A stretch of DNA of 64,000 nucleotides from a virus (IMGVR_UViG_2924880783_000005:1-64000), one strand, 5' to 3'; positions 8,064-35,935 are shown, numbered from the stretch's first letter. The notes: generated by a model not told the origin, from the sequence alone. Numbers and translations are program-made.

Positions 8064-9329
8064 CTATAATGATTGCACCAGCGTGTTGTACGCGGCACGG
8101 CTTGTCCGCATCGCGTTCTGCATACAGCCGATGGTCAGGTATCCGGGTATGTTACAGCCGGTCTTGGCGCAGTTGGCCTTCACGTTTCGACCCTGACCCC
8201 GAACGATGCAGCCGTCGGGCTTGTCCCTTACGTATCCCAGTCCGCCGATTTTGCGTCTGCCGGTCTGCACGGCGCGGAGACAATCCATCACGAATTTGTT
8301 CAACTCGTCAAGGTCTTTCCGCACGTTGCATACGGGTAATATCTGGGTTGCCCAACTGAACTCACCGGTGCCTTTATACAGGTAACGGTTCACCGCGTTG
8401 ACAGCTTTTGCCAGTGTCGTATCCGGTTTTCGGATGGTTCGTGCCTCGATTTCTCTTTGGAAAGTCTTGATGCGGGATGAAGAGAGCGAAACCATCTCTC
8501 CCTTGATGCTGAAGCCTAAGAACTTGAACCACTGTTCGGGTGTCAGGTACTCGACTTTCTTCGGGTTGAGTTTCATGGATTTCTCCTCCAACCGGCTTTG
8601 AAGCATTTCCATTGCCTTTTCATGATCCTTGCCGATAAACAGCATATCATCCGAATAACGGACATAGTAGCCGTCCATCTCGGACAGTTCCTCGTCAAGG
8701 TCATACAGCAACACGTCGGCCAGCCAGCTCGCCACGGCGCAGCCCTGTTTCAGGGACTGGTACTGCCGGCAAAGGTTGTTCTCCCCGTTAAAGTACAGGT
8801 CGCTATGGTAATATTTCCTGAGCACGTCAATCAGGGCGGAATGCCCGTGTCGCACCTCTACCTTGTCAAAAGCCTCATCAATGAACTGAATCGGTACGCT
8901 GTCGAAATACTTGCTCAAATCGGCTTTCCAACCCAGATACCCGTTGTCTGCACCACCTGTCATCCTGTGGCTGACCTCGGTAACGACTCTGCCGCAGCCG
9001 ATGCCCTTCTGATAGGACTTGCACGAGCCATGCAGCATTTCGGGCATCAACTCGAACAGCAGGTCATTGGCGATACCCAGCACCACACGGTCCATCGGCT
9101 CGTTCACGTAAACGGTTCTGAACTCTCCGTTATCTTTTGGTATCTGCGCCGTATGGGGCGGTGATATTTCATACTTGCCCTGCATCATGGCTTCGGCCAT
9201 GGCGAGACGTGTATCTTCATTGGCCAGCCGGATAAGCTGGTCCTTGCGGATGTCCTTGTCCACGCCCTTTTCAATCGCTTTCGTCCATCTGTCGATGTCG
9301 AAAAACATCTCTAAAATCTTGTCTGCCAT
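8064..9329 (-). CDS. Reverse transcriptase, stand-alone (UG/Abi-like; not group II intron or DGR by context)
   Basis: RT motifs KADLSKYFDSV, LKQG, YVRYSDD, FKFLGF; 421 aa; no recognisable endonuclease domain. Confidence 0.93.
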   Translation of the reverse strand: MADKILEMFFDIDRWTKAIEKGVDKDIRKDQLIRLANEDTRLAMAEAMMQGKYEISPPHTAQIPKDNGEFRTVYVNEPMDRVVLGIANDLLFELMPEMLHGSCKSYQKGIGCGRVVTEVSHRMTGGADNGYLGWKADLSKYFDSVPIQFIDEAFDKVEVRHGHSALIDVLRKYYHSDLYFNGENNLCRQYQSLKQGCAVASWLADVLLYDLDEELSEMDGYYVRYSDDMLFIGKDHEKAMEMLQSRLEEKSMKLNPKKVEYLTPEQWFKFLGFSIKGEMVSLSSSRIKTFQREIEARTIRKPDTTLAKAVNAVNRYLYKGTGEFSWATQILPVCNVRKDLDELNKFVMDCLRAVQTGRRKIGGLGYVRDKPDGCIVRGQGRNVKANCAKTGCNIPGYLTIGCMQNAMRTSRAAYNTLVQSL

Positions 9330-11560: not shown

Positions 11561-12658
11561 TTAAAGTGTTATGTTCAACACTCGGCAGGCAGCCCTCACG
11601 GCATTCGATGTGAGTTGTCGTTGCCACGCTTGGTTGCGAGGTGACCACTTGAAGGCCTCTCGCTTGAGCTTGGTTCGCATATCACTGTCAGGAACCGCGC
11701 CGAAGAGGAGTTGCAGTCGGTCTTCCTCGAAGTTGTAGACCACCTTGCCGCCGTTGAAGGGAATCTCACGATTTTCACGGCTTGCCCGTTCCTGCTGCTT
11801 TTCCTGTACCTTGCGGGCAAGTTCCGGGTATTTGAAGATCGAATGGCGTGCAGTGACGATGGGTTTCTTGATTTTGGCGTTCCATTCGCGCAGATAAGCG
11901 ATGGCGCGGTCGATGATTTCCACGTTGCCATGATTGACATAGGTGGAGAGCCGCCCAGCGAGGTTGCTGACGAAAAGGGCCCGGCTATAGCCCCGTACCG
12001 TACCCGTGTCGATACCGTGAATGGTCGAGGCGGCATCGTCGATAAGGGCTTTGACCTTCCGCCACTCCTCCTCGAGACGCTGCTCCTCGGGCTTGGCCGC
12101 TTCGGCAGCCTTGCGAATCGCTTCGAGTGCGCGTTCTCGCCATTCCCGGAACGCAGTGACGCTCTTGGCGTGGCTGTTGCAGGCCTTTTCATTACGGGCG
12201 GTATTGAAGCGTGCGGGTCCCGTGATCATCGCGCTGGCACAGCGGCTGTTCGCGGCAATCATCGCCAAGAAATACCGCTTGTAGTTCTCCGTGTAACGCT
12301 CCCTCTGTTCTTCGGGCATCGCCATCAGGTCCTCGTGCAGTTCCTTTTCGTGGGTGGCGATGTCCGTTTCGCCGCGCTCTTCGGGCGAGAAGGAGGTGAG
12401 GTTGTAGGAGTCGCACGCTTGTTTGAAGTACACTTCCAGATAGCCCGGGTGCGCTGTCTCCACGACTTCCCAGTCCTTGAAATCCGCCGGGGCGAGGATT
12501 TCTTCCCTGCCTGGTTCTCCGACAAGATGGGAGAAGTTGCAGTAGCCGTATCTCTTCCCTCTATAATGAAATGCCACCGGCTCGCTTCCCGGGGTATCCT
12601 TGCGCCGCACCGCCGTTACACGGTGGGCATTCTCTCGCGTTAAAATAATTGTTTCCAT
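11561..12658 (-). CDS. MGE protein with ASAMITGPARF and RLQLLF...FKWSPRNQAWQR motifs (seen in plasmid/phage early or polyvalent proteins)
   Basis: Motif recognition; 365 aa. Confidence 0.65.
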   Translation of the reverse strand: METIILTRENAHRVTAVRRKDTPGSEPVAFHYRGKRYGYCNFSHLVGEPGREEILAPADFKDWEVVETAHPGYLEVYFKQACDSYNLTSFSPEERGETDIATHEKELHEDLMAMPEEQRERYTENYKRYFLAMIAANSRCASAMITGPARFNTARNEKACNSHAKSVTAFREWRERALEAIRKAAEAAKPEEQRLEEEWRKVKALIDDAASTIHGIDTGTVRGYSRALFVSNLAGRLSTYVNHGNVEIIDRAIAYLREWNAKIKKPIVTARHSIFKYPELARKVQEKQQERASRENREIPFNGGKVVYNFEEDRLQLLFGAVPDSDMRTKLKREAFKWSPRNQAWQRQLTSNAVRAACRVLNITL

Positions 12659-12688
12659 TTTATCCGATTTGATTGTCAATATTCATTA

Positions 12689-16662: not shown

Positions 16663-17229
16663 TTATGCCGCCTCTTTTACCGTTTCGGTGGTTGTGGCGG
16701 TTGCCACGCCTTCAGCCTTGCCTGCGTTTTTCTTGGCAGGTTTTTCGGCTTTCTCGAGGCTTGCGAGGTTCGGGGCGAAATTCATGGCGTCGCGGATAGC
16801 CTTTGCCGCTGCGTGGATGGTCTTGGCAAAGTCGCGGTTCGACTTCTCGAGGTCTACTTTGGTCGGCACAAGTCCGATGCGTGCCCACACGCTGTCCGTC
16901 AGGTCGTAGTGCTTGATGCGGTTGTGCGACTTGTCGCAGATGATGATTTCCGCCGGAGTGGTGGCACGGAATTTCGACCGGATGCCGTCGGCATCGGCTC
17001 GGAGTTTCTTTTCCTCAGCGATTGTGTGCCACATGGTCGCGACCACGTTTTTAATCACACGGAAAATCTCGTTGTCCGTTTTGTCGGCAGGCTCGAAATC
17101 CTTGCCGAAAAAGTGCTGTGCGGTTTGTACCGTCACACCGTCGCGGTTGGTCGAGCTGTAAACCAGCATTACACCTGCAAACGCACTGAGATTTGCGTAC
17201 TGTTCCTTGTTCAATTTAGAAGTTGCCAT
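16663..17229 (-). CDS. First gene of the early arm, hypothetical with Lys/Ala-rich tail
   Basis: ATG 17229 (MATSKLNK) with AT-rich leader. Confidence 0.75.
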   Translation of the reverse strand: MATSKLNKEQYANLSAFAGVMLVYSSTNRDGVTVQTAQHFFGKDFEPADKTDNEIFRVIKNVVATMWHTIAEEKKLRADADGIRSKFRATTPAEIIICDKSHNRIKHYDLTDSVWARIGLVPTKVDLEKSNRDFAKTIHAAAKAIRDAMNFAPNLASLEKAEKPAKKNAGKAEGVATATTTETVKEAA

Positions 17230-17271
17230 AATGATTTGAATTAAAGAATTACTGCGTAAAATCACGCATTG

Positions 17272-17341
17272 CGGGCACTCGGGGAATCGAACCCCGAACC
17301 CTGCACGATAGCGCAAAGTGTGGCATTCCTGCCACGTGCCC
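17272..17341 (-). ncRNA. tRNA-like cloverleaf, non-canonical, no encoded CCA
   Basis: Minus strand GGGCACG-TGGCA GGAA TGCCA-CA-CTTTGCGC TATC GTGCAGGG-TT-CGGGG TTCGATT CCCCG-AGTGCCC-G; canonical T-arm, 6-bp acceptor stem. Confidence 0.65.
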
Positions 17342-17381
17342 AAAAAATTGCCGTGCATTTCACCCTGCACGGCAAATTTTT
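17342..17381. terminator. Bidirectional intrinsic-terminator-like hairpin abutting the tRNA-like element
   Basis: 10-bp stem 17348-17357/17366-17375 with T-tracts on both strands. Confidence 0.6.
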
Positions 17382-17899
17382 CGTAACTTTGTCGCACCTT
17401 ATAACGTACCCCATAGCAGGCTATCCAAATGAGCGTATTTTCGGCATATCGTGTATCGGCTTACTCACGTTTCATTCGTGTCGTGGCACTGCGCTGCTTT
17501 ACTCCAATTTCGGCAAGACGCTTCTCTGGCACGTCCCGGATCTTTCCCAATCCGGCAGCTAACTTTAAGGTGAGGCATTTAGGCGTTGCCGCCGAGCTGG
17601 GTATTGGGTATAGCATTGGCATATACATTTACCAGCGTCCTCTATGCGGATAGTTTTTACCGCTCGTGCATTTTATTCCGAGCGCACAAGGGCGCAATTA
17701 TGGCATTATTCTTACACGTCCTTTTTCCATACAACTCTCGCACTCCCAAAATTTAGCGTGCTTTGTGTATGCGGACTAAAAACACGTTTTTAGCCGTTCC
17801 AACTTGCTACATTGGTTTGTAGTCTTGCTCGGTGTGGTTATTTAACACCCTATTTAATCGCTCCAAAGCGAACAAGCGAATTTTTGATTTTCCAAGCCT

Positions 17900-17907
17900 C
17901 AAAAATA
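17900..17907 (-). promoter_or_regulatory. Candidate Bacteroidota -7 element (TATTTTTG) for the early leftward operon
   Basis: Matches TAnnTTTG; no clear -33 element. Confidence 0.35.
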
Positions 17908-18975
17908 GGTTTCCCACAAAAAGGGCTTTTTGTTTCTCGCTCTCGGCGGACTGTTTTTTCTGTTTCTTAAATCTGTTTTTTAGTTATCTATTTTTTTGTT
18001 CGTTTTTCTCCGTACTTGTTTGCCGTTTGTTTGGCTTTCGAGTACATGACTATTATAAAACCGTTTTTCCAATCTCCAAAACTTTTTGCAAAAAAAATTT
18101 TTGAGGTTTCCCAAAACAGCCCTTTTGCGAATATGGAACGCCCGCGCGCGAGGAGGCTTTGTAAACGATTGAATAACAGCCGTTTATAAAAAGTTGAAAA
18201 AAATTTTTTCTTTGCAAAAATCAAAAAAGCCCCGATTCAAAGCGTATAACAAAATGAAAGTTTGCATAAATAGCTATTTATCAGATAATTATAATTGATA
18301 TAAACCTGAATATAAAAGCGAAATGCAAAAAACACTTTTTTATGCTTTCAATTTGTAAGATAACAAAGATAAAAAAGGCATTTTAGGTTTACTTTTCAAT
18401 AAAGTAAACCATATAATATATTGATATTCAACAAAGTGATAAAATTAAAAAGAATGTGGAGGGTGCGCTTGCGGGTGCGGATTCGGTATCTGTCCTCGGG
18501 CCGTTTTTCCAAGTCCGACTTTTGAAATCGGGATGAAATGCCTTCCAGATGCAAAAATTATAAGTATGGCGCGGAATATATATGGATTTACTCGGATGAA
18601 ACGCGGCATATCTGTTTGTGCTGTTTATATCTGACATTTTTTCTATATATATAGACTTTTCTGCATTTTTTCCTTTTACTGCTGTCTTGGGTTTCGTGAC
18701 GGCTTGCATTTATATACGGGGTTTCTTAAGATTCGGAATCCGGTGGGATGATACGCCATTTTCGGCGGTTGTTATGGTGTCGGGTTGATTATCAAGAATA
18801 AACGGATTGAGTTCAGATTATTCCTATTACATAGAAATCTGTGTTTTAGCAATATATATGATATATAGGGTGAGAGACATCGTTAATATCTGACTTATTT
18901 GTACAGTTTTTGCTTTTTTATATTAAAAGCCGGAGTTTTGGGGTTTAGGTTCCCGATTCTTTGCTGAATAATATA

Positions 18976-21682: not shown

Positions 21683-22807
21683 TCAACGGTATTCGGGGTG
21701 TCTCTTCCACCACAGTTCGATAATGCATTCCCTGCCGACGGGGGTCCAGCGTTTGCGGGACCCGAACGTGAAAACCTTTCCGCGGTCGTTCTCCCACGTG
21801 TAGGGGACGTCACATTGCCAGGAACGGTACGCGGGCAGCACGACCCATTGTTGCTTGCTGTACATGCAGACGCCCTCTTCCTGCAGGAAACGGTGCAGAT
21901 CCCGTGACGAGGTGTTGAGTTCATCGGCGATGCGCGTGCTCCTGAACCACTCCCGCTTCTCTACAAACTCATCGTAAAAGGCGGCTTTGCGCGAGAAGTC
22001 GCGCACGACGCCGCGGAGTTCGTCGATCATGCCCAGCGCACTCTCCATATCTGTCGGGACCGGCCTGCCCAGGCAGGGCAACTCGGCGGCTCCCGCATCG
22101 CGCGGCAACATCTTGCGCCGGGCGTGTCTTGCCGTCAACGTCCCGAGCAACTCTTCGCACCACTCGGGCAGTCCGGAATCCGGCGCGATCCAACGTGCCA
22201 TCGGAACCAGCAACGGCGACTCTATCCATGTGGCGCCGTTGCCCCGTCCCCGTGTGGTAAAAATCTGGAACTCGTAGCGGTCCGTCTGTCCGGTTCGTGC
22301 CAGCTCGCGCCGCAGGTGGTCTGTGGCGGCGATACGGAGCCATTCGGAGGGTATTTTCCCGTAACGCATCGTTATCTGTGTGGCATTGACCATCAGTTTG
22401 TCCCCGACGCGTCGGAGGGTCACCGGAAAATCATCTGCGAAATGATAGACGTTGTCCGGCTGCCGTTGGGCATGAAGATTTCCCGCTTCCAGTTCGAAAA
22501 GCTGGTTGCCCCATGCTTCCAGCTCGTCAAACAGGTCCCGGGGTAGAATACTCTCCTTGCGCACGGACTGTAAAAGCCGCCTCATGTCCGACGGCCGGAA
22601 GGCCCACTGCTCACGTCCGCCCTTGCGCAGCGGCATTCTGATGGAGGACGGGCATATCTCCGCGATGCCGCCGTTCTTTAACAACTCGTCTCGTTTAAGG
22701 ATCCCGCACACGTCGTCGGCCGAGATGTGCAGCATCCCGTCATGGTTCCGCGATACACGGATGGTCGTATCGCGGAACGGAACATTTCTGTTTTCTTTCA
22801 TAATCAT
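21683..22807 (-). CDS. Antirepressor-like protein: BRO-N-like + KilA-N + ANT C-terminal domains
   Basis: ISADDVCGIL (BRO-like), VNATQI...PSEWLR (KilA-N), KAAFYD...STRIADEL (ANT). Confidence 0.75.
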   Translation of the reverse strand: MIMKENRNVPFRDTTIRVSRNHDGMLHISADDVCGILKRDELLKNGGIAEICPSSIRMPLRKGGREQWAFRPSDMRRLLQSVRKESILPRDLFDELEAWGNQLFELEAGNLHAQRQPDNVYHFADDFPVTLRRVGDKLMVNATQITMRYGKIPSEWLRIAATDHLRRELARTGQTDRYEFQIFTTRGRGNGATWIESPLLVPMARWIAPDSGLPEWCEELLGTLTARHARRKMLPRDAGAAELPCLGRPVPTDMESALGMIDELRGVVRDFSRKAAFYDEFVEKREWFRSTRIADELNTSSRDLHRFLQEEGVCMYSKQQWVVLPAYRSWQCDVPYTWENDRGKVFTFGSRKRWTPVGRECIIELWWKRHPEYR

Positions 22808-32962: not shown

Positions 32963-33445
32963 ATGGATGTAACCTTTGAAGGCAAGTCCTCGACAGGAAA
33001 AAACGAATGGCTCACGCCGCCACATATCCTGAGGCGGCTGGGGGCGTTCGATTTGGACCCCTGCGCTCCCGTGTCCCGTCCGTGGAATACAGCGGTGCGT
33101 CATTATACCATCGAGGATGACGGGCTCAAGCAACCGTGGTTCGGGCGCGTGTTCTGTAACCCGCCGTACGATACGGTACTCATAGCGCGTTTCATCCGTC
33201 GTTGTGTAGAACACCGCAACGCCATAGCGCTGACTTTCGCCCGGACGGACACGAGGCTGTTCCACGAGCTGGTGTTTCCGAATGCGGATTCCATACTGTT
33301 TATCAAGGGACGGCTGAGTTTCTGTCACGTTACGGGCGAGCCGGGAGGCACGGCCGGCGCCCCGTCCTGCCTGATCGCCTTCGACAAAGAAAATACCGCA
33401 ACGTTGGAGCGATGCGGTATAGAGGGGAAGCTGGTAAAATTATAA
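32963..33445 (+). CDS. Phage DNA N6-adenine methyltransferase (Dam-like)
   Basis: EWLTPP, FDLDPCA, DGLKQPW, CNPPY. Confidence 0.85.
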   Translation: MDVTFEGKSSTGKNEWLTPPHILRRLGAFDLDPCAPVSRPWNTAVRHYTIEDDGLKQPWFGRVFCNPPYDTVLIARFIRRCVEHRNAIALTFARTDTRLFHELVFPNADSILFIKGRLSFCHVTGEPGGTAGAPSCLIAFDKENTATLERCGIEGKLVKL

Positions 33446-34204
33446 TTCTATATATCTGGCCCTGTCAAAGGTGTGATGCTCGTTGGCAAACACATAGCCT
33501 AACTGATTGCTCACGCATTTCGTGTTCCCGATAGTCTTGTCTACGTTTCGGTGCGAGTGTCCATATATCCAATACTCGACCGGGCTTTGAGCGATAAAAT
33601 CTTCCATCTCGACGACAAAGGCACCATTCAGCGGACTGCCCTTAAACTCGTCGGAAAGCAATTCGAAGGAGGGCACATGGTGGGTGGCGACAAGGATATG
33701 TTCCGCTTTGCTCCGGCAGACGCTCTCTTTCAGAAATTTGGCGCAGCGGAGATGCTCATCGTTAAAGCGATTCCAGTCAAGCGGCTCACTGCCGTAACGT
33801 ATCCTTTTGAAATCACTGATGGCATTCTCCGTGCGAAAGGCATCCTGAAGCTTAATGGCCGACCATAGCGTGGTCGCTATGAGGTCTATGTCTTTTGCCA
33901 ATGGGATTACAGCATTGTATATACAAGTTACATTATGCCTGATTTCGATTTTCCAGCCATTATACAGTTTGTCAATATCGAAAAGCTTGTAGAACTCATG
34001 GTTGCCGGGAATGACAATGACCTGCCTATAGTTTTCGGATGCCCAGTCCCAAAAAGGGTGTTTCGAATAATTGTTATCTCCGATATATCCGATGTCTCCG
34101 GCCAACACAAGAATATCACCCACCGCTTCCAGCGGATATTCTTTTAGGAATCTGCTGTTATCTGCAAATTCCAGATGCAGGTCGCTGGCGTATTGTATCT
34201 TCAT
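33440..34204 (-). CDS. Calcineurin-like metallophosphoesterase
   Basis: SDLH, AGDIG, GNHE, THH, GHSH. Confidence 0.88.
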   Translation of the reverse strand: MKIQYASDLHLEFADNSRFLKEYPLEAVGDILVLAGDIGYIGDNNYSKHPFWDWASENYRQVIVIPGNHEFYKLFDIDKLYNGWKIEIRHNVTCIYNAVIPLAKDIDLIATTLWSAIKLQDAFRTENAISDFKRIRYGSEPLDWNRFNDEHLRCAKFLKESVCRSKAEHILVATHHVPSFELLSDEFKGSPLNGAFVVEMEDFIAQSPVEYWIYGHSHRNVDKTIGNTKCVSNQLGYVFANEHHTFDRARYIEL

Positions 34205-34205
34205 C

Positions 34206-34988
34206 TCATTCTTCTATAATAAATGCGGCATCCAACAGTTCAAGGAAAACTTCTATGTCATCCGATGTGCGGTTAAGCGCCGCTTCCAGGGACTGGCTGG
34301 GAAGCGTTTTCCTTATGCCTTCAGAAAATTCCCTGATACATTCATATATGGACTCCGTTACTTTCACTGGTTCGGGAACGGAGGTTGTGGCAATCAGTTT
34401 CAATACATCCGAGCGATGCTTCTTGATATGTTTGGTATTGACGTGCTTTCCTTCCTCTTTTTCTGCCATGAGGTTCAGATATGCGCGTGCCTTCAATGCC
34501 ATCAGCGCAACCGGATGGGCAATCCTCAATCCGCCATCCACGAAACTGTTCCGGATCGTAAAATGATAATAGTCATCGTCCATGATAATGGCTGACAAAC
34601 TGGACAACTCGTCCCCCACGGGTATAGGTTCGATGACAAATCCGGAAGGTTCACCCAAGATGTCCGGATGTCTGGACAGCAACTCTATTTGAACGGGATA
34701 CCCGTCATCGGGATTGTCAAAACGGTACAAGGTATATACCGATTCATCGGAATTTTCCCGGCTGCGTTTTGCCGGATGATATCCGCCTTCACGGACAAAC
34801 GTCCAAAACGCGGCGGCAAATTCGGGCGTCATCCTTTCGACAATGATAATCATGTCTATGTCACTGGTTGCGCGGGGGCGCATGTCTGTTCCCTGAAGGA
34901 CAATATCACAAGCCGTTCCCCCGATGATAACGTAATTGTCGGCATATTGTGCAAATGCCTCTTTGAATTTATCGATACCTGTTACCAT
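34206..34988 (-). CDS. AbiEii/AbiGii-like nucleotidyltransferase (type IV toxin)
   Basis: IIGGTA...RATSDID signature. Confidence 0.75.
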   Translation of the reverse strand: MVTGIDKFKEAFAQYADNYVIIGGTACDIVLQGTDMRPRATSDIDMIIIVERMTPEFAAAFWTFVREGGYHPAKRSRENSDESVYTLYRFDNPDDGYPVQIELLSRHPDILGEPSGFVIEPIPVGDELSSLSAIIMDDDYYHFTIRNSFVDGGLRIAHPVALMALKARAYLNLMAEKEEGKHVNTKHIKKHRSDVLKLIATTSVPEPVKVTESIYECIREFSEGIRKTLPSQSLEAALNRTSDDIEVFLELLDAAFIIEE

Positions 34989-35935
34989 AAGTTTTTAACC
35001 ATTATTTCAAGTTCATTTTCAACGCGCGAGTCATTATCTTTCCTCAATGTCAGATATAAGGACAGTTTATCCACCGTGTTGCCTGCCGTTACGGGAGGAT
35101 AATCCCAAAGTTCGATCATCACATCTCCGTCTATGTCATTGGCTCCGATAAATGTACCGGTCTTTTCCATATCCTTGAACATGGAGGCGTCGAGCGCGTA
35201 CATCCGTTTCTCGTCAGGATTCAGGTTTGAATAGCGCGATAATGCGTTATAGCTACAGGTATACATATTATCCACGCAGCTTACGGCATCACAGTAAAAG
35301 GTCTTTTTTATCGGATTCCTCAGAAACGGCAGAGCGTTCCGCCATAATTCTTTTCCTTCCGATGAAAAATGTACAGTCAAGGCATTGTCCTGATTCCGGA
35401 GAGTCTCACACAGGTTAAACTGTCCGAGCAATTTGACAGCCCGTGTCAACGTAATATATTTGAAAGGGACGATATTTTCCAGCTCTCTGAATGTCAACCC
35501 TTCAATGCTTTTCATTTGAAGGTGGTACAGCAGCAGGTATTGTGCGACCGCGGACAGGGAGTTTTTTGTATTGCCCTCCGCCGTTCGGGCATTGATAATC
35601 ATAAACGGCAGGAATGCGTATTTGTCCGATACGATAAAATAAGCGCCCTGCTTTATCATCCGGTCCCGCTCATAATTGACCAGGTCGTCAAAAAGGAATA
35701 CGACCGGCCCGTTCAGGATGGTGGCCAGCCTACGTGCTGTATTTCCATATTGCATGGGAGTATACCGTTTGCCTTTTTTATGTGTCAGCAAAATAAAGGA
35801 ATGGCCTTGGAAGGTCGTAAGGTAGAACTCAAAACTGACCAGAGCATCGGCATACACGCCTCTCAATTCCGCTTTTTCCATCTTGCGAAGTTCCAGCTTT
35901 TCTCCCGCGGCTATTATATTCATTTGTTTTTTCAT
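34982..35935 (-). CDS. AbiEi-like antitoxin / HTH regulator partner
   Basis: Upstream of and overlapping the NTase; central HTH-like region; C-terminal VDKLSLYLTL...RVE. Confidence 0.6.
   Translation of the reverse strand: MKKQMNIIAAGEKLELRKMEKAELRGVYADALVSFEFYLTTFQGHSFILLTHKKGKRYTPMQYGNTARRLATILNGPVVFLFDDLVNYERDRMIKQGAYFIVSDKYAFLPFMIINARTAEGNTKNSLSAVAQYLLLYHLQMKSIEGLTFRELENIVPFKYITLTRAVKLLGQFNLCETLRNQDNALTVHFSSEGKELWRNALPFLRNPIKKTFYCDAVSCVDNMYTCSYNALSRYSNLNPDEKRMYALDASMFKDMEKTGTFIGANDIDGDVMIELWDYPPVTAGNTVDKLSLYLTLRKDNDSRVENELEIMVKNLW

What the first reader, a model, noticed from the sequence alone, without database searches (positions are those of the whole stretch)
17272..17341. Non-canonical tRNA-like cloverleaf in the leader of the early operon
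Seen (minus strand, 70 nt): acceptor GGGCAC/GTGCCC, a 5-bp arm capped by a GGAA tetraloop in place of the D-arm, an 8-bp arm with a 4-nt loop in place of the anticodon arm, and a perfect T-arm CGGGG-TTCGATT-CCCCG. There is no CCA. It lies 42 nt upstream of the first early gene and directly after a terminator-like hairpin. Inference: it cannot decode. It may be an RNase P/Z processing or stability element, a decoy for tRNA-targeting defences (anticodon nucleases, AbiE/MenT-type NTases), or part of an antiterminator.
Basis: partly seen in the sequence, partly recalled or inferred. Interest (0 to 1): 0.72.

Follow-up and report, generated by a model that had tools for sequence, protein, structure and literature searches.

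The report
Non-decoding tRNA-shaped RNA in phage leader
A gut Bacteroidales phage keeps a tRNA-shaped RNA with no anticodon, flanked by two small hairpins, between a large folded leader RNA and its first early gene; it most likely serves as a cutting site for the host's tRNA-processing enzymes rather than as a tRNA.

Summary
Bases 17341-17272 (minus strand) fold into a cloverleaf with a 6-bp acceptor, a D-like arm, a closed 9-bp arm in place of the anticodon arm and a canonical T-arm. There is no CCA.

The fold is kept through compensatory changes in every relative found (about 27 phage and prophage loci from Bacteroides, Alistipes and Paludibacteraceae). It always lies in the same module: hairpin with loop GGGUGAAA, U-rich spacer, tRNA-like element, N73-CAA, a second hairpin, then about 20 nt to the first early gene. 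It cannot decode, it is not a tRNA by the Rfam model, and it is not an att remnant.

The module always adjoins the Rfam motif Bacteroidales-2. Wobble-pair counts and a long-range helix suggest that this motif is read from the same strand as the tRNA-like element. That would make it part of a leader RNA of about 700 nt.

Best model (inferred, not shown): host RNase P and RNase Z cut the cloverleaf out. This leaves the leader RNA with a 3' hairpin and the early mRNA with a 5' hairpin, as for MALAT1/mascRNA and plant mitochondrial t-elements. No expression data could be obtained.

Earlier notes of this scan on other genomes had already recorded the tRNA look-alike beside Bacteroidales-2.

The parts
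17272..17341 (-). tRNA-shaped RNA. It has a 6-bp acceptor, a D-like arm whose loop contains GG, a closed 9-bp arm with a UAUC loop and no anticodon loop, a 6-bp T-stem with the canonical loop UUCGAUU, and discriminator G. The four helices meet without linker bases.
   Evidence: Covariation. Model R1 scores it at 85.8 bits on the minus strand and 31.1 bits on the plus strand.
17342..17375 (-). Hairpin 1: a 10-bp stem with conserved loop GGGUGAAA, followed by U6. It has the shape of an intrinsic terminator and lies 4-6 nt upstream of the predicted RNase P site.
   Evidence: One search finds it terminator-like on both strands. In one search all 10 stem pairs show compensatory changes, and the non-Watson-Crick cells are G-U on the minus strand with no A-C. 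The loop is conserved in all clades. The U-run is only UUAU in the L056/L066 clade.
17269..17271 (-). Invariant CAA directly after the discriminator. It is the 3' trailer, and no CCA is encoded.
   Evidence: N73-CAAU is invariant in all variants. Host tRNA genes are also mostly CCA-less, often with C74.
17253..17268 (-). Hairpin 2: a 5-6-bp stem that starts 3 nt after the discriminator.
   Evidence: Two pairs covary (UGCGU/ACGCA, UACGC/GCGUA, UAUGC/GCAUA). The position is fixed in all variants.
16663..17229 (-). First early gene: 188 aa, begins MATSKLN, no known family. It heads a leftward operon that includes a primase-like gene (11561-12679) and a reverse transcriptase (8064-9329).
   Evidence: It is present downstream of the element in all loci.
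17376..17528 (-). Conserved structured spacer of constant length (181-187 nt from the Bacteroidales-2 model start to the tRNA-like element). It holds hairpin B, with loop CGAAAUUGGAGUAA, and the 3' strand (17401-17410) of a long-range helix whose 5' strand is at 17528-17535.
17529..17935 (.). Match to Rfam Bacteroidales-2 (RF02943), which Rfam lists on the plus strand. My counts favour transcription on the minus strand, as part of the same leader RNA as the tRNA-like element.
   Evidence: 422.5 bits. It lies beside the tRNA-like element wherever the locus reached far enough: 21 model-confirmed loci and 10 BLAST-confirmed genome loci.
18003..18080 (-). Candidate start of the leader RNA. A conserved TTTG (18080-18077) is followed after 19 nt by a TATAAT / TAnnGTTG-like box (18057-18050), then by a covarying hairpin (about 18041-18003). 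Inferred only.
   Evidence: The Bacteroides promoter consensus is taken from PMC7366714.

Best explanation
The element is a maintained, non-decoding tRNA mimic that works as an RNA-processing cassette.

It is transcribed on the minus strand as part of the leader of the early/replication operon. That leader is most likely about 700 nt long and includes the reverse complement of the Rfam Bacteroidales-2 motif.

The element keeps the parts of a tRNA that RNase P, RNase Z and the CCA-adding enzyme read. These are a 12-bp acceptor/T-arm stack (6+6 instead of 7+5), a canonical T-loop, and GG in the D-loop for the elbow. I therefore infer two cuts. Host RNase P cuts before G17341. RNase Z cuts after the discriminator at 17272.

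The upstream RNA would then end in hairpin 1 plus a short U tail. This is the same 3' end that termination at that hairpin would give. The early mRNA would begin with CAA followed at once by hairpin 2, a 5'-terminal stem-loop of the kind that shields bacterial mRNAs from decay. A cloverleaf of about 70 nt would be released and probably receive CCA.

Shown here: the structure, its conservation, the fixed spacing of the three elements, and a host with RNase Z, RNase P RNA and mostly CCA-less tRNA genes. Inferred: transcription, both cleavages, the stabilising role of the hairpins, and the extent and strand of the leader RNA.
For: 1. The cloverleaf is conserved with compensatory changes, and all 20 distinct homologues fold to it on their own.
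2. The T-arm is fully canonical, with the two loop-proximal G-C pairs invariant and the loop UUCGAnU. The D-loop keeps GG in nearly all variants. Acceptor plus T-stem make 12 stacked pairs. Position -1 is U in nearly all variants.
3. Hairpin 1 always ends 4-6 nt before position +1, and hairpin 2 always starts 3 nt after N73. Both covary.
4. A lysogen, Bacteroides ndongoniae, has RNase Z (323.7 bits) and type-A RNase P RNA (219 bits). About 21 of the 25 distinct tRNA genes sampled there lack an encoded CCA and often start the trailer with C, like the element's N73-CAA.
5. The element separates cleanly from real tRNAs under model R1. Family members score 50-89 bits, with one degenerate member (L273) at 32.5 bits, and real tRNAs score <=35 bits.
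6. Evidence that the same strand is read through the neighbouring conserved RNA:
- The long-range helix 17535-17528/17410-17401 has 25 G-U cells against 1 A-C cell, and a double compensatory change in L044.
- Hairpin B has 3 G-U events against 1 A-C event.
- Interior wobbles in the Bacteroidales-2 core favour the minus strand by about 12 events to 4.
- The consensus fold is -66.4 on the minus strand and -48.0 on the plus strand.
7. tRNA-like structures used in just this way are established for MALAT1/MEN-beta and for plant mitochondrial t-elements, and RNase P processes phage regulatory RNAs (PMC4919922).
Against: - Neither transcription nor any cleavage is shown.
- The junction has no linker bases (no U8/N9, N26 or variable loop). 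An L-shape, and hence efficient RNase P/Z recognition, is therefore assumed.
- The near-invariant acceptor sequence and the invariant CAAU are more conserved than RNase P or RNase Z would need. Another sequence-specific reader may exist.
- RNase Z would leave a 5' monophosphate on the mRNA, which usually speeds decay.
- Rfam lists Bacteroidales-2 on the other strand. Three conserved helix-end G-U pairs and U-rich tracts after its last helix fit the Rfam strand. If Rfam is right, the element lies in a short leader divergent from that RNA. The processing model survives this, but the link to a large RNA does not.
Confidence: 0.48

Rival explanations
1. The cloverleaf is a working domain of the large leader RNA or of a ribonucleoprotein, not merely a cutting site. 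It would recruit a tRNA-binding partner such as a modification enzyme, the CCA-adding enzyme, EF-Tu, the ribosome or a phage protein, much as the tRNA-like domains of tmRNA or bacterial Y RNAs do.
For: The element lies beside the Bacteroidales-2 region in every locus that reached far enough, at a fixed distance of 181-187 nt. The acceptor and CAAU are nearly invariant while the other stems covary freely. The GOLLD and ROOL phage RNAs are also typically found next to tRNAs (PMC5737381).
Against: No tmRNA, YrlA or other family matches. No partner protein was identified. The first gene has no family. No conserved pairing was found between the cloverleaf and the neighbouring RNA or its flanks.
Confidence: 0.17
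2. The element is a decoy or sponge for enzymes that attack tRNA acceptor ends. These could be host toxins of the MenT/AbiEii or CapRel type, or the phage's own AbiEii-like nucleotidyltransferase. Made early in infection, it would protect real tRNAs.
For: The element would be made from the early operon leader. The acceptor helix and discriminator region are the most conserved parts. The phage carries a weak AbiEii-like gene at 34206-34988 (PF08843, E = 0.013, below the cut-off).
Against: The idea is purely circumstantial. One copy per transcript is a poor competitor for the cell's tRNA pool. The discriminator changes from G to U in one clade. The AbiEii match is below threshold, and I did not test whether that cassette co-occurs with the element.
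Confidence: 0.1
3. Hairpin 1 and the cloverleaf together form a transcription attenuation or antitermination switch. A factor that binds the conserved loop GGGUGAAA, or the cloverleaf itself, decides whether polymerase passes the hairpin-1 terminator into the early genes.
For: Hairpin 1 looks like an intrinsic terminator in most clades. Its loop sequence is conserved while the stem covaries. It lies between the only plausible promoter region and the early genes.
Against: The U-run is degenerate (UUAU) in the L056/L066 clade. The cloverleaf lies downstream of the terminator, so it cannot compete with it during transcription. No second copy of the loop motif occurs in non-coding DNA of the window. 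This model gives no role to a canonical T-arm or to hairpin 2.
Confidence: 0.1
4. The element is an immunity RNA of the P1 C4 / P4 CI type. RNase P would cut a cloverleaf out of the early leader, and the released RNA would then pair with its own operon's mRNA to block it.
For: The position is the same as for these RNAs: the leader of an early or replication operon of a temperate phage. It is plausibly an RNase P substrate. Phage regulatory RNAs are known RNase P substrates (PMC4919922; the details of P4 CI are from memory).
Against: No match to the Rfam C4 family appears at E<=10. The loops are only 3-8 nt and vary without matching changes elsewhere. Duplex searches against the flanks and the start region gave no signal above shuffles.
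Confidence: 0.06
5. The element is a decaying tRNA gene or a leftover of a tRNA attachment site, with no function.
For: ARAGORN reports it as a tRNA. Its acceptor and trailer resemble the host type, for example Bacteroides tRNA-Asn, which ends ...GCCCG followed by CAA.
Against: Compensatory changes maintain all four helices across clades whose first gene is only 46-68% identical. The position is fixed and internal in integrated prophages. The flanking hairpins co-vary.
Confidence: 0.02

Closest known systems
MALAT1/MEN-beta tRNA-like structures (mascRNA, menRNA; Rfam RF01684)
   Same: A tRNA-shaped element with a shortened, closed anticodon arm lies directly after a long structured non-coding RNA. 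In that system RNase P cutting makes the long RNA's protected 3' end, and RNase Z releases a small tRNA-like RNA (PMC4919922). It is the best Rfam match to the element.
   Different: The score of 22.5 bits is below the cut-off of 42.5, so the element is not a member. That family is vertebrate and nuclear. Here the upstream 3' end would be a hairpin plus U-tail, not a triple helix. A protein-coding operon follows the element. The cleavages are not shown here.
Plant mitochondrial t-elements and the mitochondrial tRNA punctuation model
   Same: tRNA-like folds inside longer transcripts serve as RNase P/RNase Z sites that define mRNA ends (PMC4919922).
   Different: That is an organellar system using protein-only RNase P. 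There is no sequence relationship. Conserved protective hairpins on both sides, as seen here, are not part of that model as far as I know.
P1/P7 C4 antisense RNA and P4 CI RNA
   Same: These are cloverleaf-like RNAs cut by RNase P from the leader of a phage early operon (the C4 reference is cited in PMC4919922; P4 CI is from memory).
   Different: Those RNAs act by base-pairing through their loops with targets in the same operon. No such complementarity was found here, and there is no match to the Rfam C4 model.
Bacteroidales-2 RNA (Rfam RF02943) and the large phage RNAs GOLLD and ROOL
   Same: The element is the constant neighbour of Bacteroidales-2. GOLLD and ROOL are likewise prophage RNAs commonly found beside tRNAs and are possibly co-transcribed with them (PMC5737381).
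   Different: The tRNA-like element lies outside the Rfam model, and the main text of that paper does not mention it. The neighbour here is a tRNA mimic, not a real tRNA. My counts suggest that the strand and extent in Rfam need revision.
Canonical tRNA (Rfam RF00005)
   Same: It shares the acceptor helix, T-arm, GG in the D-loop, a discriminator base, and a CCA-less trailer like the host's own tRNA genes.
   Different: It has no 7-nt anticodon loop, no linker or variable-loop bases, a 6+6 instead of a 7+5 stack, and no match to the tRNA model at E<=10.

Membership tests
Canonical tRNA (RF00005) | Scores at or above the family's gathering threshold (29 bits) | tested here: not met
   No RF00005 match at E<=10 in 16900-18100. 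All 64 tRNA matches in the genome of a lysogen score >=46 bits.
Canonical tRNA (RF00005) | 5-bp anticodon stem with a 7-nt loop carrying U33 and an anticodon | tested here: not met
   The arm is a closed 7-9-bp helix with variable loops of 3-8 nt in all variants. ARAGORN's anticodon calls are inconsistent.
Canonical tRNA (RF00005) | T-arm with G53-C61 and loop T54-Psi55-C56-R57-A58 | tested here: met
   The two loop-proximal G-C pairs are invariant, and the loop is UUCGAnU in 26 of 27 variants. L273 has UUUAACU.
Canonical tRNA (RF00005) | Linker bases U8/N9, N26 and a variable loop | tested here: not met
   The four helices abut without unpaired bases.
mascRNA-menRNA (RF01684) | Scores at or above the gathering threshold (42.5 bits) | tested here: not met
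   22.5 bits, E = 0.087.
C4 antisense RNA / P4 CI type immunity RNA | Match to the Rfam C4 model | tested here: not met
   No match at E<=10 in the region scan of all Rfam families.
C4 antisense RNA / P4 CI type immunity RNA | Loops complementary to targets in the same operon | tested here: inconclusive
   Duplex predictions against 70 nt upstream and 100 nt downstream gave z-scores from -2.7 to +1.9, with no conserved site. More distant targets were not searched.
Bacterial Y RNA (YrlA) / tmRNA tRNA-like domains | Match to the family model, with a closing helix that binds Ro60 (YrlA) or a tag reading frame (tmRNA) | tested here: not met
   No Rfam match. ARAGORN finds no tmRNA. No Ro60-like family appeared among the neighbours scanned.
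RNase P / RNase Z substrate (functional class) | 12-bp acceptor/T-arm stack, T-loop/D-loop elbow, and no CCA at positions 74-76 (CCA blocks RNase Z) | tested here: met
   6+6 bp stack, canonical T-loop, GG in the D-loop, trailer CAA.
RNase P / RNase Z substrate (functional class) | Cleavage at +1 and after N73 in vivo or in vitro | not testable with these tools
Only the presence of host RNase Z and RNase P RNA was shown.
Intrinsic terminator (hairpin 1) | GC-rich stem followed by a U-run | tested here: inconclusive
   Met in the window and most clades. The tail is only UUAU in the L056/L066 clade. The conserved loop suggests an additional role.
tRNA-derived attachment-site remnant | Lies at a prophage end or next to an integrase, and matches the 3' part of a host tRNA | tested here: not met
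   The element is intact and internal in provirus records and in Bacteroides chromosomes, always between the same neighbours. Both acceptor strands are present and covariation is maintained.

The most novel reading that the evidence does not exclude
The element is the 3'-end maturation module of a phage non-coding RNA of about 700 nt. Transcription would start near 18045 on the minus strand and run through the reverse complement of Rfam's Bacteroidales-2. It would either stop at hairpin 1 or read through, in which case RNase P and RNase Z excise the cloverleaf. One promoter would then give a stable large RNA, a small tRNA mimic and a hairpin-capped early mRNA. This would be a bacterial-virus counterpart of MALAT1/mascRNA. 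It would also mean that the Rfam family is listed on the wrong strand and covers only about half of the real RNA.
Probability: 0.35. Interest if true: 0.78.

Novelty: new variant of a known kind. Interest (0 to 1): 0.62.

Why it matters
Non-decoding tRNA mimics used as processing signals are textbook for vertebrate long non-coding RNAs and for organelles, but they are hardly documented in phages.

Here the anatomy is unusually explicit: a cloverleaf with a protective hairpin placed precisely on each side, at the head of the replication operon of a widespread group of human-gut Bacteroidales phages.

If the model holds, three things follow:
- It would show how a phage uses the host's tRNA-maturation enzymes to split one transcript into a large structured RNA and a stabilised mRNA.
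- It would give a function-linked handle on the orphan Bacteroidales-2 RNA, including a probable correction of its strand and length.
- It would explain a class of 'odd tRNA' calls in phage annotation. ARAGORN labels this element tRNA-Arg.

The element may also be useful as a self-processing cassette for Bacteroides genetics.

Tried and rejected
- Primer for the phage reverse transcriptase: no site complementary to the 3' 16 nt (with or without CCA) occurs in the window or in the whole 80.9-kb record beyond what the backwards-read control gives.
- Extra copies or nut-like repeats: model R1 finds a single copy in the window and in the whole record. No further GGGUGAAA-loop hairpins occur in non-coding DNA.
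- Pairing between the Bacteroidales-2 region and the leader, or between the cloverleaf and its flanks: RNAduplex gave only full-length, non-specific duplexes, with z-scores scattered from -3.5 to +1.9. This was uninformative.
- First gene: no Pfam or PHROG family, and only 'hypothetical' clusters in the protein atlas. It gives no clue to a partner protein.
- Promoter placement: the sigma-70 scan is not valid for Bacteroides. A perfect -7 box TATTTTTG at 17907-17900 (minus strand) is absent in three clades and lies in the loop of a covarying helix. A TATATTTG on the plus strand near 17440 is absent in the L044 and L113 clades and overlaps a minus-strand hairpin. I rejected both as the universal promoter.
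Members had to be sorted out with R1, so the host range given is a lower bound.
- Literature: no paper in the library names Bacteroidales-2 in this sense, or a tRNA-like leader in Bacteroides phages.

Full report
**What is there**

On the minus strand, 17341-17272 reads GGGCAC / GUGGCA-GGAA-UGCCAC / a 9-bp helix capped by UAUC / UCGGGG-UUCGAUU-CCCCGA / GUGCCC-G. The 71-mer's minimum-free-energy fold is exactly this four-way junction: -43.4 kcal/mol, z = -5.9, and no shuffle folds as well.

ARAGORN reports 'tRNA-Arg (gcg)' with the anticodon at position 28, which is not a normal tRNA geometry. On homologues it reports 'tRNA-???' or nothing. The Rfam tRNA model gives no match at E<=10. The best Rfam match is mascRNA-menRNA at 22.5 bits, below its cut-off.

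This includes the missing CCA, the 42 nt to the ATG at 17229, and the hairpin plus T6 directly upstream.

**Context**

The window is part of an 80.9-kb provirus record. It is a myovirus-like Bacteroidales phage:
- Portal, protease, sheath, tape-measure and baseplate genes lie on the plus strand from about 23.9 kb.
- A long leftward operon starts at 17229. It contains a primase-like gene and a reverse transcriptase.
- The only Rfam family above threshold in the window is Bacteroidales-2 (RF02943), at 17529-17935 on the plus strand with 422 bits.

**Conservation**

I collected relatives in four ways:
- A search with the first gene's protein gave 58 IMG/VR loci.
- A DNA pattern from the T-arm and 3' end gave 80 loci.
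- A Bacteroidales-2 motif gave six more loci.
- A genome scan gave prophages in Bacteroides ndongoniae, B. gallinarum, Alistipes and Paludibacteraceae.

Every locus that reaches far enough has the same order: Bacteroidales-2 region, 181-187 nt, hairpin 1, the tRNA-like element, N73-CAAU, hairpin 2, about 20 nt, then the gene beginning MATSKLN or MAISKLN.

All 20 distinct cloverleaf variants fold to the same shape on their own. On their alignment:
- 95.6% of cells pair, against 27-57% when the partners are slid.
- 11 of 26 pairs show double changes.
- The T-stem and the long arm covary freely.
- The acceptor changes only by wobble (G-U), which fits an RNA read from the minus strand.

A covariance model built from these sequences scores family members at 50-89 bits, with one degenerate member at 32.5 bits, and real tRNAs at 35 bits or less. 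It finds a single copy in the window and in the whole record, and it prefers the minus strand by 85.8 to 31.1 bits.

**The flanking hairpins belong to the module**

Hairpin 1 (17375-17348):
- All ten stem pairs are supported by compensatory changes.
- The loop (G/A)GGUGAAA is conserved, or GGCGAAA in one clade.
- It is followed by 4-6 mostly U residues. One clade has only UUAU, so it is not simply a terminator everywhere.

Hairpin 2 (17268-17253):
- It starts exactly three bases (CAA) after the discriminator in every variant.
- Its stem covaries (UGCGU/ACGCA, UACGC/GCGUA, UAUGC/GCAUA).

**What the element keeps and what it has lost**

Kept:
- A stack of 12 base pairs, made of 6 acceptor plus 6 T-stem pairs.
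- The invariant loop-proximal G-C pairs and the loop UUCGAnU.
- GG in the D-loop.
- U at position -1 and a discriminator base.

Lost:
- The anticodon loop.
- All linker and variable-loop bases.

The kept parts are the ones read by RNase P, RNase Z and the CCA-adding enzyme (established knowledge). They are not the parts read by the ribosome or by most synthetases.

A lysogen's genome encodes RNase Z (323.7 bits) and type-A RNase P RNA. About 21 of the 25 distinct tRNA genes sampled there lack an encoded CCA. Many start the trailer with C, and a Bacteroides tRNA-Asn even ends ...GCCCG followed by CAA. So the host must mature nearly all of its tRNAs by the route that this element imitates.

**Strand and extent of the neighbouring RNA**

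Two earlier notes of this scan, made on another genome, disagreed about the strand of Bacteroidales-2, so I tested it.

Evidence for the minus strand:
- In helices predicted in both orientations and filtered only on Watson-Crick pairs, A-C cells outnumber G-U cells 23 to 8 in the Rfam orientation. That is about 12 independent events to 4, although base composition would favour the reverse.
- The first bases of the Rfam model, read on the minus strand as GACGUGCC (17535-17528), pair with GGGYACGUU (17410-17401). This helix has 25 G-U cells and 1 A-C cell, and a double compensatory change in L044.
- The hairpin with loop CGAAAUUGGAGUAA in the 'spacer' covaries strongly. It has 3 G-U events against 1 A-C event.
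- Consensus folding of the whole region of about 710 nt gives -66.4 on the minus strand and -48.0 on the plus strand.
- Conservation continues on the minus strand to about 18230. It includes a conserved TTTG-N19-TATAAT/TAnnGTTG box at 18080-18050, followed by a covarying hairpin. The Bacteroides promoter consensus is taken from PMC7366714.

Evidence for the Rfam strand:
- Three conserved G-U pairs at helix ends.
- U-rich tracts after the last helix.

I put the minus-strand reading at roughly 70%. Under it, the tRNA-like element lies at the 3' boundary of a structured leader RNA of about 700 nt.

**Mechanism**

The model that explains all three conserved elements and their exact spacing is a processing cassette:
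- RNase P cuts before G17341. The upstream RNA then ends in hairpin 1 plus a short U tail, the same end that termination would give.
- RNase Z cuts after 17272. The early mRNA then starts with CAA plus hairpin 2. A 5'-terminal stem-loop with only a few unpaired bases stabilises bacterial mRNAs (established knowledge).
- The cloverleaf of about 70 nt is released.

tRNA-like structures work this way in MALAT1/MEN-beta and in plant mitochondrial t-elements, and RNase P also matures phage regulatory RNAs (PMC4919922). Nothing of this is shown here. No RNA data could be obtained.

Three points weigh against the model:
- The junction has no linker bases.
- The acceptor and CAAU are conserved beyond what these enzymes need.
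- The mRNA would carry a 5' monophosphate.

I give the model about 0.48.

**Rival explanations**

- A working domain of the large RNA or of a ribonucleoprotein: 0.17.
- A decoy for acceptor-targeting enzymes: 0.10. The phage has a sub-threshold AbiEii-like gene.
- An attenuation or antitermination switch with hairpin 1: 0.10.
- A C4/CI-like antisense immunity RNA: 0.06. There is no family match and no conserved target.
- A dead tRNA or att remnant: 0.02. This is contradicted by the covariation and by the internal position in integrated prophages.
- A primer role for the reverse transcriptase found no complementary site.

**Novelty**

The element is absent from Rfam, and no paper in the library describes it. 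The main text of the paper that introduced the 224 motifs does not mention it, and that paper's supplements are not held.

Other notes of this scan report non-decoding tRNA-shaped RNAs in the leaders of unrelated phages, and one had noticed this look-alike beside Bacteroidales-2. Those notes are unchecked leads, not evidence.

I class the element as a new variant of a known kind: a tRNA-like processing element, here in a phage, with paired protective hairpins and tied to a large structured RNA.

Noticed in passing
window 17529-17935, and 17230-18230 as a whole: Rfam Bacteroidales-2 may be listed on the wrong strand and may cover only part of the conserved RNA. Wobble-pair counts, a long-range helix reaching outside the model, and consensus folding all favour the minus strand. 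Conservation and covarying hairpins extend about 190 nt beyond one end of the model and at least 110 nt beyond the other.
   Followed up: partly
window 18050-18230 (minus strand): Conserved blocks lie upstream of the putative leader start in all clades. There is a near-palindrome, TTGATATTCAA in most relatives and TGTTATTCAA in the window at about 18169-18178. There is also a GC-rich island, CCTCGCGCGCGGGCGTTCCAT, at about 18133-18153. These are candidate operator or regulator sites of the early promoter.
   Followed up: no
window 17271-17341: ARAGORN labels the element tRNA-Arg (GCG). On homologues it gives 'tRNA-???' or nothing. Automatic annotation of these phages will therefore carry a spurious tRNA-Arg.
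   Followed up: yes
L178, L219, L144, L148, L203, L206 (genome contigs): Contigs, mostly short, that carry this Bacteroidales-phage module are binned into MAGs labelled Lactobacillus johnsonii, Acutalibacteraceae, Faecalimonas and Clostridiales. This is probably mis-binning of phage DNA.
   Followed up: no
window 33440-35935 (minus strand): An antisense cassette lies inside the tail module. It has a metallophosphoesterase (PF00149, E = 7e-14) next to a 260-aa protein with only a sub-threshold AbiEii match (PF08843, E = 0.013). The third gene has no Pfam match.
   Followed up: partly
window 8064-9329 and 21683-22807 (minus strand): The phage encodes a reverse transcriptase (PF00078, E = 6e-22) in the early operon. 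A KilA-N/ANT antirepressor-like protein lies in a second leftward gene block.
   Followed up: no
window 17342-17381: Hairpin 1 is flanked by an A-run upstream and a U-run downstream. It therefore scores as a terminator on both strands, and the U tail could pair with the A-run and hide the 3' end.
   Followed up: no
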